Shown here one piece after another: positions 4,394 to 21,768 of a stretch of DNA of 64,000 nt. Positions within the stretch are counted from its first letter, which is position 1. Each line of letters starts with the position of its first letter. The DNA is from Escherichia phage ALITA, in sequence record PP359570; one strand, 5' to 3'. The notes beneath the pieces were generated by a model. The model did no database searches, was not told the origin of the DNA, and saw only the letters and a list, made by a program, of their open reading frames with translations. The translations under genes were made by a program, and so were the position numbers.

Positions 4394-5377
4394 ATGGCAA
4401 AGCCACAATACTACCCTGACTGGGCGACACAAACAGTAACCCTCCCAGGAACGGGAAACACAAACAAGATTAGACCAAAAGAAACCATCCGTAATGTTGG
4501 TATGGACTTTGGTCAGATTATGACTTGTGAAGAAATGAACTGGATCTTAAACAATATTGGGTCTTGGATTCGCTATATGCAAGATGAATTCTTCCCAACA
4601 TTGCCTACTACATATCTTCCTATAGTCGGTACTAAAATTACAATGGCAGGTGATGCTACAGGTGAAGTTACATGGAATGGTAATGCTGCTGTAACATTAT
4701 CTATTCAAGTCGTAGATAACAGCCATAATCACTTATCAGCTAACATTACAGACGCAACATCAAACCAAGTTGTAGGGAATGTCCTTGTTAAGCGTGATAA
4801 TGGTGGTGCTATCTATGCAGGCGATATTTATACCTGTGGTACAGGTGCTACAGATCCTGCAACATTATTTTTTAGAAACTACAACGGACAAACAGTAGGT
4901 AATATGTCCTCTGAACCAGGTGCAGGTGGTCAACTCTATATTTATAGAATGAACCCATCAACTGGAGGAACATCTTGTGCAGTCCGTTTATATGATGCAG
5001 GTTATGTTTTAATAGACAACCCTCGTTCTAATTCTGGTCAAGATACTGGTAATGGTAATGCTCTTGTAAGATTAGACTATCTTAACTCCAGACTAAACTC
5101 ATTGCAAAGCACACTGCAAAATAATATTAACAACGTTAATAGTAACTTGCAAGGCCAAATTAATAGCATTAACAATAGAGTTTCTTCTGTTGTGTCTGCT
5201 ATCCGTCTTGGAACACGTATCCAAGCTGGTGTGTCTGAGTCTCGTTTCTATGCTGGTCACGTGATCACAGGTTGGGGTTTTGGTGACAAGAAAGAACTTC
5301 GTGGTGCTTGGTATTGGTCAGCCCCGCTACAATATTATATTAATGGTAGCTGGATAACAGTAACCAACGTTTCGTAA
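4394..5377 (+). CDS. Tail fibre protein with C-terminal coiled-coil/N-rich repeat
   Basis: 327-aa ORF, SD AAGGAG; N/Q/S-rich heptad-like segment LNSRLNSLQSTLQNNINNVNSNLQGQINSINN. Confidence 0.55.
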   Translation: MAKPQYYPDWATQTVTLPGTGNTNKIRPKETIRNVGMDFGQIMTCEEMNWILNNIGSWIRYMQDEFFPTLPTTYLPIVGTKITMAGDATGEVTWNGNAAVTLSIQVVDNSHNHLSANITDATSNQVVGNVLVKRDNGGAIYAGDIYTCGTGATDPATLFFRNYNGQTVGNMSSEPGAGGQLYIYRMNPSTGGTSCAVRLYDAGYVLIDNPRSNSGQDTGNGNALVRLDYLNSRLNSLQSTLQNNINNVNSNLQGQINSINNRVSSVVSAIRLGTRIQAGVSESRFYAGHVITGWGFGDKKELRGAWYWSAPLQYYINGSWITVTNVS

Positions 5378-13600: not shown

Positions 13601-14032
13601 TTAGTCAGTGAAAATTACGCTTACATCTTCTTTAGAAAAGAGTTTATGATCTTCACCTTTTGTCTCAAGAGTTTCATACAGATTAAGAAGTTCTGAAACA
13701 TCTTTCTCTACCAGTTTCTTCAATGTTGCAATTTTCTGTTTGCGACTCTTAATACGTTCAGCTACAACCTTACGCTGGTATCCGGCAGTACGATAACCTG
13801 AGAAAGTTACACCAGTAAGGCTTGCAGTCACAGGATCGTAGTGACGTTCAATCTGAAACTTATTAAAAGGTACAGCGTCATCACGAATAATCTTACCGCC
13901 ATTACTTACCTGACGAAGACCAGTAACTTGCTCCAGTCGTGCCATAGAAATCTTTGGAGACAGACCAGAGTCCAGGTTCATACCATTGTTAATCAGTGCT
14001 TTCAGGGTGATTTTGCTGTTCAGTGTACTCAT
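13601..14032 (-). CDS. Hypothetical protein co-transcribed with methyltransferase
   Basis: 143 aa; SD GGAGG 9 nt upstream; start overlaps end of MTase gene. Confidence 0.55.
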   Translation of the reverse strand: MSTLNSKITLKALINNGMNLDSGLSPKISMARLEQVTGLRQVSNGGKIIRDDAVPFNKFQIERHYDPVTASLTGVTFSGYRTAGYQRKVVAERIKSRKQKIATLKKLVEKDVSELLNLYETLETKGEDHKLFSKEDVSVIFTD

Positions 14033-14720
14033 TTAGTCGTTCCTCCGCTTGCTTAAAAATATTTACATCGGCTTCACAGCCTAAGTATTCTCTACCTGTT
14101 AAAAGTGCCGCAACTTGTGTTGTTGCACTTCCAGAGAAGAAGTCTAAGACTACATCTCCTTCGTTGGTGTGTATATTAATAAGGTCACAAAACAAAGTCA
14201 AGTGTTTTTGTGTTGGATGAAAACGATCTGCTCCTTGATAGATAGGATACTCAAACACACCCTTATGGTAGGAAGCATTGAAGGTTGGCTTCGAACCTTT
14301 AACACAAACAATAGCCATCTCTTTAGCGTTACTAAGGTAGTTAACACCACTGTTGATGGGTACAGGGTTTGTTTTAATCCATTCGATAGTACGGAACATA
14401 CGAAAACCAAGCGGTTCAAGGATTTCACGTAGCTCCTGGATCTTCCAGATATCATACCAAACTATGCAAGTACCACCTTTTCTAAGCACCCTGTAGGCTT
14501 CTTTGAATACTTCTTTAAAGTAAGGAATATCTACAACATCCCAATCACCGAAGTTGTAAGATACACGGAATCTATCCGTATCTTTTCCAGTCGGCTCTCC
14601 AGATTGAAAATTTGTGTCACGAGAAATAGCATATGGTGGGTCAGTAAGAATCAAATCTACACTATTGCTTTCGAGGGTTTGCAGGTAGTTTAATGCGGTG
14701 TTGTTTACAAATTCGCTCAT
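13989..14720 (-). CDS. DNA methyltransferase, beta-class amino-MTase (N6-adenine or N4-cytosine)
   Basis: 243 aa; DPPY catalytic motif near N-terminus and SAM-binding FFSGSATT near C-terminus (beta-class order); strong SD AAGGAGAT. Confidence 0.85.
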   Translation of the reverse strand: MSEFVNNTALNYLQTLESNSVDLILTDPPYAISRDTNFQSGEPTGKDTDRFRVSYNFGDWDVVDIPYFKEVFKEAYRVLRKGGTCIVWYDIWKIQELREILEPLGFRMFRTIEWIKTNPVPINSGVNYLSNAKEMAIVCVKGSKPTFNASYHKGVFEYPIYQGADRFHPTQKHLTLFCDLINIHTNEGDVVLDFFSGSATTQVAALLTGREYLGCEADVNIFKQAEERLNEYTEQQNHPESTD

Positions 14721-14736
14721 TATATCTCCTTCAAAG

Positions 14737-14758
14737 AAAAGGAGCCGTTAGGCTCCTT
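14737..14758 (-). terminator. Hairpin terminator, near-identical copy of the 13566 hairpin
   Basis: AAAAGGAGCC-GTTA-GGCTCCTT followed on minus strand by TTTTCTTTG. Confidence 0.6.
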
Positions 14759-14780
14759 ATATTCACACAATATTTAACTA

Positions 14781-15728
14781 TTAGAAACAGTGCAGGAAGT
14801 TTCGACCATACTGCAAACCAATAGGAGCAAATGGGATATCATCATCGAAATCTTGAACAACAGGTTCTGGTTCTTTCGGTGCTGGCTCTTTCTTCTCTAC
14901 TTTTTTAGTTTCTTTCTTAACTTCTTGTACCGGGGTAGACATTCCACGGATAGCAGCAGCTACTTTATCAGACAAAGCAAGAACTTCACGAGCAGCTTCA
15001 ATAATCTCTTCTGCCGTTACAGTTTTACCTGTATGATCACGACAAGCGTTAAGAATTGCGTGTCCAACTGAAGCACCAAGATCATAGTCAGTTACATCAA
15101 CGCCACGATCTTTAGCAATTTCTGCTTTCAGAGTAACAGTTGCAGATTGTACCACACCAGCCAAGTCGAAAGCATCACCTTTCACACCAGCACGTAGAAG
15201 CTCCAGAGCGCCGTTTACAGCGTGTCCTGTTTCAATCCCTACGGTATCACGTTTTTTGTAGTTAGGCTTGCTACCTTCGTTATTAGATGGCTTATTTCCA
15301 CCTTTTGAAGAAGATTGTGCTTGCTGAACACCTTCTGTTGAAAGAATAGTGATTTTACCTTTAGAGGAATTGTAGTATGTTTTGCCATTCCATTCAGAAG
15401 GTTTAACATCCATAGTTAGTTCTACACCTTTTTCGATAGTAACCCACTTATCACCATCTTTAACTTGCAGGTTTTCATGTTCTGGGTGCAGTTTAACTTC
15501 ACCTAGGCTAACCCAAACACCTTTATCATCAGCACCAGCACCTTTCTCTTTAATAAGCAGGGATGCTTTGTGAGTTGATTCAATTTTCTTATCTGGCTGA
15601 CCTGCAACCTTAATATAAGAAACTTTCATTTCATCAAACTTATCTAGTTTGACATATTCAACGATACCTTCAGCCCAGAATGCTTCTTTTTTAGTACGAC
15701 GGTCGATTTCAGAATTAATTACTGGCAT
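14781..15728 (-). CDS. Single-stranded DNA-binding protein-like
   Basis: 315 aa; acidic DFDDDIPF motif (as at bacterial SSB C-terminal tip) 15 residues from the end; G/S/N-rich linker; position beside replisome genes. Confidence 0.55.
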   Translation of the reverse strand: MPVINSEIDRRTKKEAFWAEGIVEYVKLDKFDEMKVSYIKVAGQPDKKIESTHKASLLIKEKGAGADDKGVWVSLGEVKLHPEHENLQVKDGDKWVTIEKGVELTMDVKPSEWNGKTYYNSSKGKITILSTEGVQQAQSSSKGGNKPSNNEGSKPNYKKRDTVGIETGHAVNGALELLRAGVKGDAFDLAGVVQSATVTLKAEIAKDRGVDVTDYDLGASVGHAILNACRDHTGKTVTAEEIIEAAREVLALSDKVAAAIRGMSTPVQEVKKETKKVEKKEPAPKEPEPVVQDFDDDIPFAPIGLQYGRNFLHCF

Positions 15729-16186: not shown

Positions 16187-16780
16187 TTAAATTTTAAATT
16201 CTTCACTGTTAAATGAATCCAGTGTACGTACTTCTGGTTCTTTGGGAATGAAAACATCTTTTACAAAGCGGAACATAGGGAAACGTTCTGCCATTTTACG
16301 GACGTGTGCTTCTTTACCTGTGTATCGGTGATTAATAGTACAAATATTAGTTTTCAGTGCAAATTCAAAATCTGGATGATATACATAATTTTGACCGTCC
16401 CAGTAACACAGGCAAATAGCTACATCAAAGTTCCATACGATTTCACTGCGTACACCTTCTTCCATGATCATAAAGTTAAACTTAAGATCTTTATAGTATG
16501 CTTCAAATACCCATTTCAAATGTGGTAGTTCGGCATAAGTGTGTTCTGTTTGCTTAGTAAGTTGTTTAACATTACGTGCACCAACACCCAACATCAAAAA
16601 TTTCTCTACTAATACGAGTGTATTGTGGTTAGGCATACGCAAGTAAATGTCAATATCTTGCGCAGGTTTCTCTAATCGCCAGTCACGTACAGCGCCGCCA
16701 GCTACAATTGCAAACGGATCTACCAGTTGGCACATACGTAATACTTCTAAAGCTCGTACTTTTTGATCTTCAATATTCAT
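16187..16780 (-). CDS. Nucleotidyltransferase (pol-beta-like head domain; CCA-adding/poly(A)-polymerase family-like)
   Basis: 197 aa; motif FAIVAGGAVRDWRLEKPAQDIDIY resembling GGAVRD...DxD of tRNA nucleotidyltransferases. Confidence 0.55.
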   Translation of the reverse strand: MNIEDQKVRALEVLRMCQLVDPFAIVAGGAVRDWRLEKPAQDIDIYLRMPNHNTLVLVEKFLMLGVGARNVKQLTKQTEHTYAELPHLKWVFEAYYKDLKFNFMIMEEGVRSEIVWNFDVAICLCYWDGQNYVYHPDFEFALKTNICTINHRYTGKEAHVRKMAERFPMFRFVKDVFIPKEPEVRTLDSFNSEEFKI

Positions 16781-19995: not shown

Positions 19996-21768
19996 TTAAT
20001 AAGAACCAGCAGAAATATTTTCTGGGTTACTTGTGTATTGATCGTAATCGTGAAGTGTAGCTGTTTTAATCTCATAGAAGAAACTACCTGCTGCACCAGT
20101 CTCTGAGAACTCACGGTTCTTTAGAATGTAGCAATATGTGCGGTTACGTTCCATAGGATCTTCAGCTTGTTTATCACGCTCCAGCGCAATTGTGATACCA
20201 GCACCTTTAGCAAGGAAGCTACTACCCATTGCATCATCTTCTACAATATGTTCATTACTATTGTTAGAAGACTTTTTAACGTGTGAAATTACAACAATGG
20301 TTATTGCATACTCTTTCATAATGCGTTTCAGCCACGTCGCAAGTTCCTCTTGTTGTGACACGTCCATACCAGAAAGCAAATCAGAATAAGGGTCGATAAC
20401 AAGAATGGTTACTCCGAAATAAATAATCATTTCCAGAACCTTCTCTTTAATCACATCTACGTTAGCTCCACGATCATCACAAACATAGAAACGTGGTGTT
20501 CCATCTTCTCGTTCGTAAAAATCACGAATCTTTTCTTCATTATCTTTTAAAATCTTTTCCTTCTCTTCTTTCGTTTTACGGTGAAGAGGGATATGCAAGA
20601 ATGAAGACAGTAAGTTACGAGAATACTTCTTATACGTTGCCTCCAAAGATAAAATACCAAGAGTATGTTCTGGGTGTGCAAGAATAATGTGTTTCGTAAT
20701 CTCGTTAACCAACAGTGTCTTACCGATACTTGTTTTTGCAAGTATAACAGTAATTTCTTCTTCTACCAAGCCTCCACCTAACATATTCGAAGCAACACGC
20801 ATGAATGGAGGAAGGGTGATCATTTTAGCTTCCAGGCATTCCAAGGCTGCTTCATATAGTACGTTAGAAGCGTAAACACCAGCAGGTGTGTACAGTTTAG
20901 CTTTGAAAAAGCGATCAATAAAATGATCAATTTTTCCTTCTACTAGTGCCTGGTTAGGATCTTTAACATCCGTTAGTTCCATCACGTAAACTTTATTACG
21001 TGGTAAGATTTTAACACATTTCTCAACTGCTGCACGTCCAGCTTCATCATTATCCATACATAGAACAATCTTTTTAAATTGATCTAAGAATTTATAACGA
21101 TGTTGAAGCTGCTTATGCAGAGATGTTTCGCCACAAGTACCAGATACTACAGCAGGAACAGGATATTTACCACCCTTGTTATAATCTTTTAGCATCTGTG
21201 TTGCAGCCAGCATATCGTGTTCACCACCAACGATTAGAATAGTACCGCTGTGGTTACGATATTTAAACTCCCCAAAAAGATCACAATCCTTTCCTGTTTC
21301 ACCGATAGGATGTGAGAAATCTTTTGGATCGATACGTTGTTTATACCCAGCAATATTGTAATCTTTAGTTGTAGGGTATAGTGTTGAAATTACTTCGCCA
21401 GTAGCTTCATCGTACATATAACGTACACCGAAAGGCTTAGAGATATCTTCACGAATACCGCGATAACCTTTTGGATTAGTTCCAGTGCTGGCTTTTAGTT
21501 TATCATGTACTTCTGGATTAAACTCACTACCCAAGATATCCTCCTCTTCAATTTCTTCGCCGTGTGCATTTAACCATTTTTGATCAGGGATAGTAAAGCC
21601 ACAAGAAAAACAATGTGCGCCTCGATGGTCTTCATCGGCATCTAAGCCATATACCATCAAATTGTTTTGTGATCGATCACGCCCTCCTTTCATACAACGA
21701 GGACACCCAGTATGTCCTTCTTGACTTAGATCAATGTTATACCCATATTTATTTACAACATAAGACAC
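19996..21768 (-). CDS. Primase-helicase (T7 gp4-like)
   Basis: 590 aa; N-terminal zinc ribbon CPRC...CFSCGF, then DnaB-like helicase with Walker A LAKTSIGKT. Confidence 0.9.
   Translation of the reverse strand: MSYVVNKYGYNIDLSQEGHTGCPRCMKGGRDRSQNNLMVYGLDADEDHRGAHCFSCGFTIPDQKWLNAHGEEIEEEDILGSEFNPEVHDKLKASTGTNPKGYRGIREDISKPFGVRYMYDEATGEVISTLYPTTKDYNIAGYKQRIDPKDFSHPIGETGKDCDLFGEFKYRNHSGTILIVGGEHDMLAATQMLKDYNKGGKYPVPAVVSGTCGETSLHKQLQHRYKFLDQFKKIVLCMDNDEAGRAAVEKCVKILPRNKVYVMELTDVKDPNQALVEGKIDHFIDRFFKAKLYTPAGVYASNVLYEAALECLEAKMITLPPFMRVASNMLGGGLVEEEITVILAKTSIGKTLLVNEITKHIILAHPEHTLGILSLEATYKKYSRNLLSSFLHIPLHRKTKEEKEKILKDNEEKIRDFYEREDGTPRFYVCDDRGANVDVIKEKVLEMIIYFGVTILVIDPYSDLLSGMDVSQQEELATWLKRIMKEYAITIVVISHVKKSSNNSNEHIVEDDAMGSSFLAKGAGITIALERDKQAEDPMERNRTYCYILKNREFSETGAAGSFFYEIKTATLHDYDQYTSNPENISAGSY

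What the first reader, a model, noticed from the sequence alone, without database searches (positions are those of the whole stretch)
14781..15728. SSB-like protein with the DDDIPF motif internal rather than C-terminal
The acidic DFDDDIPF motif, which in bacterial SSB forms the extreme C-terminal tip that recruits partner proteins, lies 15 residues before the end here and is followed by APIGLQYGRNFLHCF. The extension may hide the tip or add a second interaction surface.
Basis: seen in the sequence. Interest (0 to 1): 0.4.

Follow-up and report, generated by a model that had tools for sequence, protein, structure and literature searches.

The report
Conserved mobile cap on phage SSB tip
This phage's single-strand-DNA-binding-like protein carries a conserved 15-residue peptide after the normally terminal DDDIPF partner-docking tip; the same undescribed peptide recurs on unrelated phage replication proteins, evolves under selection, and marks the site where a family of homing endonucleases inserts.

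Summary
ORF 14781-15728 (-) encodes 315 aa ending ...DFDDDIPF-APIGLQYGRNFLHCF*. At least 67 phage records carry the identical tail, so it is not an artefact. The window is a phi92-like myovirus and the gene is the Phi92_gp156 ortholog. The model shows an OB-fold domain, a helical domain, a disordered linker and an SSB-type tip, which supports 'SSB-like'.

The 15 residues are a recurrent module: F-AP[IV]GLQY-(x)xxΦΦx[CA]Φ-COOH. It also ends canonical OB-fold SSBs of Vibrio and lambdoid phages and prophages, and the primase/helicases of Seuna/Mydoviruses. In each family, close relatives stop exactly at ...PF* (78 of 100 gp156 homologs). The distribution is very patchy (at least 15 state changes on the tree).

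The peptide is under purifying selection: window vs nieznany shows 8 synonymous and 0 non-synonymous changes; vs SSE121, pS ~1.0 and pN 0.05.

An HNH homing-endonuclease family (phrog_2340/1035) sits just after tip-encoding genes in at least 68 of 80 loci. At capped genes it starts from an ATG inside the cap. The window holds the unoccupied site.

The cap's function is inferred: it masks the free-carboxylate Phe and probably adds a new docking end. No paper searched mentions the motif.

The parts
14781..15728 (-). CDS of the SSB-like protein (315 aa plus stop); ortholog of Phi92_gp156, PHROG 4477
15339..15728 (-). Residues 1-130: OB-type beta domain (pLDDT >90)
14946..15251 (-). [not shown]
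14853..14945 (-). Residues 262-292: disordered K/E/P-rich linker
   Evidence: pLDDT 45-56. The family profile matches the linker plus tip of solved E. coli SSB only.
14829..14852 (-). DFDDDIPF, SSB-Ct-type acidic tip (residues 293-300); this is the true C-terminus in 78 of 100 family representatives
14784..14828 (-). 15-residue cap APIGLQYGRNFLHCF (residues 301-315), 8-residue subtype of the module F-AP[IV]GLQY-(x)xxΦΦx[CA]Φ-COOH; disordered in the model
14774..14809 (-). +1-frame ATG (14807-14809, inside the Tyr-Gly codons) followed by an 11-codon stub, MVETSCTVSNS*. In occupied alleles (nieznany, rV5, KE23) the same ATG starts the HNH homing endonuclease. Here no endonuclease follows.
14739..14758 (-). 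Terminator-like hairpin AAGGAGCC-TAAC-GGCTCCTT followed by a T-rich tract. It is conserved after the gene in ukendt and SSE121. In nieznany the endonuclease body lies between the stop codon and the corresponding terminator.
13989..14720 (-). Context only: downstream N6/N4 DNA methyltransferase (PF01555, E 1.9e-30). It is absent from the tail-less relative L062.

Best explanation
The gene encodes the phage's SSB-like replication protein: an OB domain, a helical domain, a disordered linker and a DDDIPF tip. Its tip is capped by a 15-residue short linear motif, called here the GLQY cap.

Shown:
(1) The cap is a discrete module added after an otherwise terminal ...PF in three unrelated kinds of tip-bearing phage replication proteins: gp156/rV5-ORF214-type SSB-like proteins, canonical OB-fold SSBs of temperate Vibrio/lambdoid phages and prophages, and T7-gp4-like primase/helicases.
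(2) In every family, close relatives lack it, and its distribution on the gp156 tree needs at least 15 gains or losses. It therefore moves horizontally or is lost easily.
(3) It evolves under strong purifying selection in the SSB reading frame, so it acts as a peptide.
(4) A large HNH homing-endonuclease family is specialised on the 3' ends of tip-encoding genes. At capped genes the endonuclease is inserted exactly after the stop codon and borrows a start codon from inside the cap. The window carries the unoccupied allele: cap, stop, terminator.

Inferred:
- The terminal Phe carboxylate that SSB-Ct pockets use is buried in a peptide bond, so the cap weakens or blocks canonical docking of host SSB-interacting proteins.
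- The conserved hydrophobic C-terminus (...ΦΦx[CA]Φ-COOH) supplies a new docking end for a partner that has not been identified. That partner is probably a conserved gammaproteobacterial protein, because no phage gene co-occurs with the cap.
- Endonuclease homing with co-conversion of flanking DNA is the likely vehicle that spreads the cap between genes and phages.
For: Presence and identity.

Fold and architecture.

Module on unrelated proteins:
- Vibrio phage V039C SSB matches the NCBIfam SSB model to its last position at ...DDDIPF, and the 15 aa lie beyond it.
- HK75 SSB ends ...DDDIPFAPVTLPFPRHAIHAI.
- There are 48 IMG/VR loci and 9 prophage or plasmid SSBs in bacterial genomes.
- Primase/helicases end ...DDDTPFAPIGLQYA[NK]HAIYV[LI], whereas rV5 and phage 6S orthologs end ...TPF*.

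Polymorphism:
- ukendt and KP2025 end DDDIPF*, while same-genus nieznany is capped.
- 78 of 100 homolog clusters end in PF, including one at 87% identity.
- Fitch parsimony gives at least 15 changes with a tail-less root.

Selection:
- Synonymous positions vary freely while the amino-acid pattern is kept.
- Over the terminal 7-8 codons, pN/pS is 0.49-0.55 in the SSB frame against 0.9-1.7 in the other frames.
- Window vs nieznany: 8 synonymous, 0 non-synonymous changes. Window vs SSE121: pS 1.03, pN 0.05.

Endonuclease link:
- Overlapping starts.
- Insertion exactly at the TAA.
- 68 of 80 endonuclease loci are preceded by an acidic ...PF tip.

Masking inference: SSB-Ct pockets share an ionic contact with the C-terminal Phe carboxylate (PMC5872125). 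SSB-C-term-GFP cannot bind ExoI and is dominant negative (PMC7293020).

Precedent for a phage SSB tip recruiting a phage partner: HK620 SSB and Sak4 (PMC5928155).
Against: - No partner was identified. Genes next to capped canonical SSBs are heterogeneous: Erf, RecT, YqaJ-type exonuclease, RdgC-like proteins and methyltransferases.
- The cap is dispensable in many close relatives, so any function is conditional.
- AF2 gives low confidence for the cap (pLDDT 53-58), so there is no structural hint.
- Endonuclease-adjacent ssb genes also carry one-residue caps and unrelated read-through extensions. This shows that tip capping can arise as a mere by-product of endonuclease insertion.
- The direction of change is unresolved: the test for decayed cap remnants after tail-less stops gave p ~0.03-0.1.
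- The masking evidence comes from a bulky GFP cap, not from a 15-residue peptide.
Confidence: 0.55

Rival explanations
1. Selfish by-product. The extension is only a footprint or immunity change left by homing-endonuclease traffic at the ...IPF-stop junction. It disrupts the endonuclease target or is read-through of cassette DNA. It has no function for the phage and is tolerated because phage SSB-like proteins do not need a free tip.
For: - The endonuclease family is specialised on tip-encoding 3' ends.
- 39 of 68 adjacent tips carry a one-residue cap, and 9 carry unrelated extensions, against 1 of 100 in the endonuclease-independent family sample.
- The endonuclease start lies inside the cap.
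- The distribution is patchy and the cap is absent from close relatives.
Against: - Peptide-level purifying selection acts in the SSB frame but not in the endonuclease frame.
- Length and the hydrophobic pattern are conserved across Vibrio, Pseudoalteromonas, Providencia and E. coli phages, with saturated synonymous sites.
- 34 loci of the 7-residue subtype never have an adjacent endonuclease.
- The endonuclease is inserted after the cap's stop codon, not at the ...PF junction.
Confidence: 0.22
2. C-terminal degron or processing signal. The non-polar C-terminus (LHCF, LLMCM, IYVI, IHAL) targets the protein to host proteases that recognise hydrophobic C-termini. This would limit SSB levels, or the cap would be trimmed to regenerate a functional tip.
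For: The last five residues are consistently hydrophobic or non-polar. The segment is disordered and accessible. The idea rests on general knowledge that non-polar C-terminal residues destabilise proteins in E. coli; no paper was read for this.
Against: - The strongly conserved APIGLQY half is not explained by a simple hydrophobic-end degron.
- No protease site is known after Phe in this context.
- Nothing in the data addresses stability.
Confidence: 0.1
3. Intramolecular regulator. The cap folds back on the protein's own DNA-binding surface as a stronger auto-inhibitory tail.
For: From general knowledge, acidic tails of E. coli SSB, T7 gp2.5 and T4 gp32 contact their own DNA-binding domains; the HK620 paper discusses this for SSB.
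Against: The same cap sits on three structurally unrelated protein classes. AF2 does not dock it (pLDDT 53-58).
Confidence: 0.05
4. Sequencing, assembly or annotation artefact: a frameshift near the 3' end created a false extension.
For: None beyond its unusual appearance.
Against: The tail is identical in at least 67 independent phage records. It is conserved with synonymous changes in other genera.
Confidence: 0.01

Closest known systems
Bacterial SSB C-terminal tip (SSB-Ct, ...DDDIPF-COOH) as a hub for SSB-interacting proteins
   Same: The acidic DFDDDIPF motif is identical and sits at the end of a disordered linker behind an OB domain. In 78% of the gp156 family it is the true C-terminus.
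   Different: Here the Phe is followed by 15 conserved residues, so the alpha-carboxylate used by SSB-Ct pockets (PMC5872125) is not available. The OB domain has no sequence match to the SSB family, and an extra four-helix domain is present.
T7 gp2.5 (SSB) and gp4 (primase-helicase) acidic C-terminal tails ending in Phe, which both dock on T7 DNA polymerase (from general knowledge; no paper was read for this)
   Same: In Seuna/Mydoviruses an SSB-like protein and a gp4-like primase/helicase of a phage with a T7-like PolA share the same C-terminal tail: an acidic tip ending in PF, plus the cap. rV5 primase/helicase ends ...EDDETPF.
HK620 SSB and Sak4: a phage SSB whose last six residues (NDYPPF) recruit the phage annealase (PMC5928155)
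   Same: It is a phage-encoded SSB in a recombination module whose C-terminal peptide determines partner choice. Capped canonical SSBs also lie next to Erf, RecT and exonuclease genes.
   Different: The HK620 tip is terminal and has no cap. No single recombinase family co-occurs with the cap.
Engineered SSB-C-term-GFP (PMC7293020)
   Same: It is an SSB whose tip is followed by extra residues. It loses ExoI binding and support of Pol III strand displacement, and it is dominant negative. This is the nearest experimental analogue of a capped tip.
   Different: It is an artificial 27-kDa cap, not a natural, conserved 15-residue peptide.
Free-standing phage homing endonucleases that sit between genes, cut the endonuclease-less allele in a conserved neighbouring gene, and spread with co-conversion of flanking DNA, such as T4 Seg and Mob enzymes (from general knowledge)
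   Same: The HNH gene is present or absent between otherwise collinear relatives and is inserted cleanly between the stop codon and the terminator. The family is tied to one conserved coding target, the tip-encoding 3' end.
   Different: Cleavage specificity was not tested. The use of a start codon inside the host gene's cap, and the specialisation on ssb-type tips, have not been described in the papers searched. The window itself has no copy of this endonuclease.

Membership tests
Canonical bacterial/phage SSB (Pfam SSB, TIGR00621) | Significant sequence match to the SSB family profile | tested here: not met
   Pfam gave 0 families at E<=1. NCBIfam gave 0 families. The positive control, V039C SSB, scored 3.7e-87. 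The family profile hits solved SSBs only over the linker plus tip.
Canonical bacterial/phage SSB (Pfam SSB, TIGR00621) | OB-fold DNA-binding domain | tested here: met
   [not shown]
Canonical bacterial/phage SSB (Pfam SSB, TIGR00621) | Disordered linker ending in an acidic ...DDDIPF tip | tested here: met
Canonical bacterial/phage SSB (Pfam SSB, TIGR00621) | Tip Phe is the last residue (free alpha-carboxylate) | tested here: not met
   15 residues follow F300 in the window. The feature is met in 78 of 100 family representatives.
Canonical bacterial/phage SSB (Pfam SSB, TIGR00621) | Binds single-stranded DNA; forms a homo-oligomer | not testable with these tools
   Needs EMSA or MST and SEC-MALS on purified protein.
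PHROG 4477 (Phi92_gp156 / rV5 ORF214 family, function unannotated) | Full-length profile match | tested here: met
   E 2.2e-101. The protein is 97% identical to Phi92_gp156. Synteny is shared: polymerase, nucleotidyltransferase-like gene, 132-aa ORF, then this gene.
GLQY-cap module (defined in this report) | Directly follows an acidic ...[IVT]PF tip and has the core AP[IV]GL[QP]Y | tested here: met
   DFDDDIPF-APIGLQY. The same core is found in 57 other loci and in 21 of the 22 extended gp156 homologs.
GLQY-cap module (defined in this report) | 7-8 further residues ending ΦΦx[CA]Φ at the C-terminus | tested here: met
   GRNFLHCF is the 8-residue subtype.
GLQY-cap module (defined in this report) | Peptide-level purifying selection | tested here: met
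Homing-endonuclease-occupied ssb 3' end (phrog_2340/1035 HNH gene overlapping the cap) | HNH gene with N-terminal C.KCG...FYKH..M.DGH.NKCKEC immediately after the stop codon | tested here: not met
   The Zn-finger motif is absent from all six frames of the window. Only an 11-codon stub follows the shared ATG, and that stub is the same DNA as the cap, so it is not evidence of past occupancy.
T7 gp2.5-type phage SSB | Structural similarity to the gp2.5 OB fold | tested here: inconclusive
   [not shown]
Beta-clamp-binding motif (QL[SD]LF / QLxLxL) | Invariant Gln and hydrophobic residues at positions 2, 4 and 5/6 | tested here: not met
   By inspection only. The Gln is replaced by Pro or Met in natural caps. 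Position 4 is Ala, Arg or Asn.

The most novel reading that the evidence does not exclude
The GLQY cap is a phage-specific switch on the universal SSB-Ct hub. It makes phage SSBs and primase/helicases invisible to host tip-binding enzymes such as ExoI, RecQ, PriA and chi, or dominant negative towards them. It may also hide them from tip-sensing defences. At the same time its conserved hydrophobic end recruits a different, still unknown partner. This beneficial cargo peptide is spread between unrelated replication genes by a homing-endonuclease family that targets tip-encoding DNA and depends on the cap for its own start codon. That would be a mutualism between a selfish element and a host-takeover motif.
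Probability: 0.25. Interest if true: 0.8.

Novelty: new variant of a known kind. Interest (0 to 1): 0.6.

Why it matters
The SSB C-terminal tip is one of the best-studied protein-interaction hubs in bacterial DNA metabolism and is an antibacterial target. Its function is understood to need the terminal Phe with a free carboxylate. A natural, conserved, selected peptide that caps this tip would therefore be informative. It is present in lytic E. coli, Salmonella and Klebsiella phages used for therapy, in Vibrio phages, and in prophage ssb genes of at least 184 of 5,426 complete E. coli genomes.

If real, it gives a ready-made natural experiment on how phages rewire or silence the host SSB interactome, and it offers a defined peptide to fish for the partner.

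It also matters for annotation, because these genes are labelled plain 'ssb' or 'hypothetical'. It matters for recombineering and SSAP-SSB pairing work that relies on SSB tails. Finally, it reveals a large homing-endonuclease family with a single, very conserved coding target, the tip-encoding 3' end of ssb-type genes.

Tried and rejected
- Artefact or frameshift: rejected.
- The +1-frame stub MVETSCTVSNS* as proof that the window once held the endonuclease: rejected, because it is the same DNA as the selected cap (and notes). The clean insertion boundaries in nieznany fit an 'empty site' better.
- Cap conservation explained by DNA-level signals such as an RBS, the endonuclease frame or RNA structure: rejected, because synonymous sites are free and the +1 and +2 frames show pN/pS of about 1 or higher.
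- Decayed cap remnants after tail-less stop codons, to decide gain versus loss: inconclusive (p 0.03-0.1).
- Partner identification by gene neighbourhood of capped canonical SSBs: no common neighbour.
- Beta-clamp motif: does not fit, by inspection.
- Literature searches for PIGLQY, FAPIGL, IGLQY, PVGLQY, GLQYP and GLQYG: zero occurrences. The five IPFAP occurrences were in an unrelated APE1 paper and were not examined, and all HAIHAI and DIPFA hits were in papers on unrelated subjects.
- Searches for ssb-targeting homing endonucleases: only incidental mentions.
- Pfam and NCBIfam on the protein and on the endonuclease: no hits.
- The solved-structure profile search hit only the linker plus tip of SSB.
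- The bacterial-genome scan found the cap only on prophage or plasmid SSBs, never on a housekeeping SSB.

Full report
OBSERVATION. The ORF is exactly as described. It lies at 14781..15728 on the minus strand and encodes 315 aa ending ...VVQDFDDDIPF-APIGLQYGRNFLHCF*. The tip DFDDDIPF is residues 293-300 (nt 14829-14852) and the extension is residues 301-315 (nt 14784-14828). The window is a phi92-like myovirus (Justusliebigvirus, Stephanstirmvirinae). The protein is 97% identical to Phi92_gp156, annotated 'conserved hypothetical'. Fifty phage records carry it at >=99% identity over the full length, and 67 records have the identical 27-residue tail. A sequencing or frameshift artefact is therefore excluded.

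IS IT AN SSB? Pfam and NCBIfam find nothing, and PHROGs places it in the unannotated family 4477. An AlphaFold2 model built on 97 homologs (mean pLDDT 82.5) has these parts:
- a confident beta domain (residues 1-130);
- a disordered stretch (about 138-156);
- a confident four-helix domain (160-261);
- a disordered C-terminal region (262-315) that includes the tip and the extension (pLDDT 45-58).

THE EXTENSION IS NOT THE FAMILY NORM. Of 100 homolog cluster representatives, 78 end exactly at ...DDDIPF. These include one at 87% and one at 80% identity to the window protein. The other 22 carry an extension, and 21 of those have the same core motif. In the sister genus Phapecoctavirus, ukendt ends DFDDDIPF*, as does Klebsiella phage KP2025. 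Phage nieznany has the identical APIGLQYGRNFLHCF*. Distant Vequintavirinae have it too: SSE121 ...FAPIGLQYGRNFIHCI*, a Mydovirus ...FAPIGLPYGRNFIHCI*, and rV5 ...FAPVGLQYGKSRIHAL*. Mapped on a neighbour-joining tree of the core domains, the trait (19 of 97 taxa) needs at least 15 changes, and the root is inferred tail-less. The tree is approximate, but the patchiness is robust.

THE SAME MODULE SITS ON UNRELATED PROTEINS. tblastn with the 27-residue tail and a degenerate DNA scan for PFAP[IVM]GLQY in IMG/VR (48 loci) gave these results:
- The cap ends many canonical short SSBs with Q/P-rich linkers. One example is Vibrio phage V039C. It matches the full-length NCBIfam SSB model through its last position at ...DDDIPF and then continues APVGLQYGRNLLHVI*.
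- A more divergent form ends lambdoid HK75 SSB...DDDIPFAPVTLPFPRHAIHAI*. This type occurs in at least 184 of 5,426 complete E. coli genomes, annotated simply 'ssb'.
- It also ends the T7-gp4-like primase/helicases of Seunavirus and Mydovirus...DDDTPFAPIGLQYA[NK]HAIYV[LI]*. Orthologs in rV5 (...EDDETPF*) and Salmonella phage 6S (...DFDNDTPF*) stop at the Phe.
- In one-genome-per-species bacteria the motif occurs only on nine prophage or plasmid SSBs (Pseudoalteromonas, Oceanisphaera, Vibrio, Providencia, Glaciecola and one Parasphingorhabdus MAG) and never on a housekeeping SSB.
- Two length subtypes exist: 7 residues after the Tyr (P.LL.C[MI]* and relatives) and 8 residues (G[RK]..[IL][HY].[ILF]*, the window's type). 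They align with a one-residue insertion, giving the consensus F-AP[IV]GLQY-(x)xxΦΦx[CA]Φ-COOH.
- No paper in the searchable library contains the motif strings PIGLQY, FAPIGL, IGLQY, PVGLQY, GLQYP or GLQYG. Hits for the shorter strings were in papers on unrelated subjects.

IT IS SELECTED AS A PEPTIDE. Across distinct DNA versions, third codon positions vary freely while the amino-acid pattern is kept. This holds at the terminal positions that the search pattern did not fix. Over those terminal 7-8 codons, pN/pS is 0.49-0.55 in the SSB frame with pS near saturation, against 0.87-0.98 and 1.2-1.7 in the other two frames. The cleanest comparisons use relatives found through their N-terminal domains. 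For tip plus cap, window vs nieznany shows 8 synonymous and 0 non-synonymous differences (pS 0.59, pN 0). Window vs SSE121 gives pS 1.03 and pN 0.05. Window vs V039C, which was found through the tail search and is therefore not free of selection bias, gives pN/pS 0.10. The cap is therefore neither a neutral scar nor a very recent transfer.

LINK TO A HOMING ENDONUCLEASE.
- In nieznany, rV5, KE23 (after the primase/helicase), morffagbaw and several IMG/VR contigs, an HNH endonuclease gene follows the capped gene. Its N-terminus is a zinc finger, C.KCG..K....FYKH..M.DGH.NKCKEC, and it belongs to PHROG 2340/1035. Its ATG lies inside the cap's Tyr-Gly or Tyr-Ala codons.
- DNA alignment shows that homology between the window and nieznany ends exactly at the TAA. 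The endonuclease reads ...TCT AA|G GTT TGT..., so its conserved core begins at the junction. The gene body sits between the stop codon and the AAAGAAAAGG-hairpin terminator that directly follows the stop in SSE121 and the window.
- The window has that terminator-like hairpin at 14739-14758 and no copy of the endonuclease anywhere. It therefore looks like the unoccupied site.
- The 11-codon +1-frame stub MVETSCTVSNS* is the same DNA as the selected cap and is not independent evidence of past occupancy.
- I scanned IMG/VR with the endonuclease alignment (at least 572 loci, the best 80 analysed). In 68 of the 80, the upstream gene ends in an acidic ...[IVLT]PF tip, and most of the other 12 have near-variants. 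Of the 68, 16 end PF*, 39 end PF plus one residue (N 30, S 7, K 2), 4 have GLQY caps and 9 have unrelated extensions. The family is thus specialised on the 3' ends of ssb-type genes, and capping of the tip is common next to it.
- None of the 34 loci of the 7-residue subtype has an adjacent endonuclease. The subtype with Tyr-Gly/Ala (TATGG or TATGC) supplies the ATG.

MECHANISM. The shown facts are the architecture, the modular and mobile distribution, the peptide-level selection, and the endonuclease coupling.

The inferences are as follows. SSB-Ct-binding pockets share an ionic contact with the carboxylate of the terminal Phe (PMC5872125). An E. coli SSB with GFP fused to its C-terminus cannot bind ExoI, does not support Pol III strand displacement, and is dominant negative (PMC7293020). 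A peptide bond after F300 should therefore weaken or abolish canonical docking of host SSB-interacting proteins. A single extra residue would be enough for that, yet a specific 15-residue sequence is conserved. The cap therefore most likely also provides a new docking end, ending in a hydrophobic ...ΦΦx[CA]Φ-COOH.

The same tail on an SSB-like protein and on a gp4-like primase/helicase of one phage recalls the T7 gp2.5 and gp4 tails that share a docking site on the polymerase (general knowledge). HK620 SSB recruits Sak4 through its last six residues (PMC5928155). However, capped canonical SSBs sit beside varied recombination genes, with no common phage neighbour, and all hosts are Gammaproteobacteria. 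A conserved host partner is therefore at least as likely as a phage one. The patchy distribution is most simply explained by recombination at the conserved tip-encoding DNA, plausibly driven by endonuclease homing with co-conversion. The direction of change (gain or loss) is unresolved. Tail-less alleles of two genera share their own conserved spacer, so both allele types are old.

RIVALS.
- A purely selfish by-product of endonuclease traffic is supported by the one-residue caps and junk extensions next to endonucleases. It is contradicted by the selection data and by the many endonuclease-free lineages.
- A degron or processing signal, and an intramolecular auto-inhibitor, remain possible but poorly supported.
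- An artefact is excluded.

COMPARISON AND NOVELTY. The protein works like an SSB with an SSB-Ct hub, but it is not a sequence member of the SSB family, and in this phage it fails the 'tip is terminal' feature. The cap is, as far as the searchable literature shows, undescribed. It is best classed as a new variant of a known kind: a modified SSB-Ct tail. The endonuclease family's specialisation on tip-encoding 3' ends also appears to be unreported.

VERDICT. I rate interest at 0.6. A specialist in SSB biology would find a selected natural cap on the tip surprising, and it is directly testable with peptides and simple phage genetics. The function of the cap is still an inference.

Noticed in passing
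IMG/VR loci L064-L143 (e.g. L076, L083, L113); not in the window: An HNH endonuclease family (phrog_2340/1035) lies just downstream of genes ending in an acidic ...[IVLT]PF tip in at least 68 of 80 loci. In 39 of those the tip is capped by a single residue (N 30, S 7, K 2), against 1 of 100 in an endonuclease-independent sample of the gp156 family. The one-residue cap may be a target-site immunity change.
   Followed up: partly
L156 1-1174 (rV5), L157 1-1108 (Salmonella phage 6S), L008 530-2584 (KE23): The T7-gp4-like primase/helicases of Vequintavirinae natively end in an SSB-Ct-like tip (...EDDETPF*, ...DFDNDTPF*) behind a Pro-rich linker. This suggests they use the same docking logic as SSB. 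The window's own primase/helicase (19996-21768) has no such tail.
   Followed up: partly
[not shown]
   Followed up: no
window 13989-14720 (-) and 13601-14032 (-): An N6/N4 DNA methyltransferase (PF01555) and a 143-aa ORF (phrog_20244) lie between the SSB-like gene and the opposite-strand tail genes. They are absent from the tail-less relative L062, where the tail-fibre gene follows directly. Several capped canonical SSBs are also followed by a DNA methyltransferase, an MT-A70-like gene starting 13 nt after the stop. This may be coincidence.
   Followed up: no
window 16187-16780 (-): This nucleotidyltransferase-like ORF has only a weak PolyA_pol head-domain hit (E 0.0017). Its homolog in L062 has a weak PF26128 (Gad2) hit on record. 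GenBank records call it tRNA nucleotidyltransferase/poly(A) polymerase.
   Followed up: no
L009 (OY978796.1, Klebsiella phage K45PH128C2) 981-2069: The gene annotated 'ribonucleoside diphosphate reductase small subunit' ends with the same sequence as the KNP2 'AAA family ATPase', which is the primase/helicase. The product names in this record appear shifted by some genes.
   Followed up: no
GenBank MG065639, MG065644, MG065647, MG065655, MG065658 ('Campylobacter phage' A150, A147, D#, C2, C7): These records carry gp156-type and primase/helicase genes essentially identical to E. coli phi92-like and rV5-like phages. The host labels are probably wrong, or the preparations were contaminated.
   Followed up: no
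L157 (PQ002171.1, Salmonella phage vB_Sen_SG_WM_SEW_6S): The record's taxonomy line says Demerecviridae, but its primase/helicase and polymerase region is about 90% identical to a Seunavirus (Vequintavirinae).
   Followed up: no
E. coli genome hits H141-H148, e.g. NC_011601.1 725523-725658: HK75-type capped prophage ssb genes (...DDDIPFAPVTLPFPRHAIHAI*) occur in at least 184 of 5,426 complete E. coli genomes, up to 4 places per genome, all annotated as ordinary 'ssb'.
   Followed up: partly
L003 3380-3400 (ukendt) and L062 about 4898-4920: Tail-less alleles from two genera share a conserved post-stop spacer, TGATnTnATTGATTTATAAAG, ahead of the common terminator. It weakly resembles the first cap codons (12 of 21 matches, shuffle p about 0.03). 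Whether tail-less alleles are decayed capped alleles is unresolved.
   Followed up: partly
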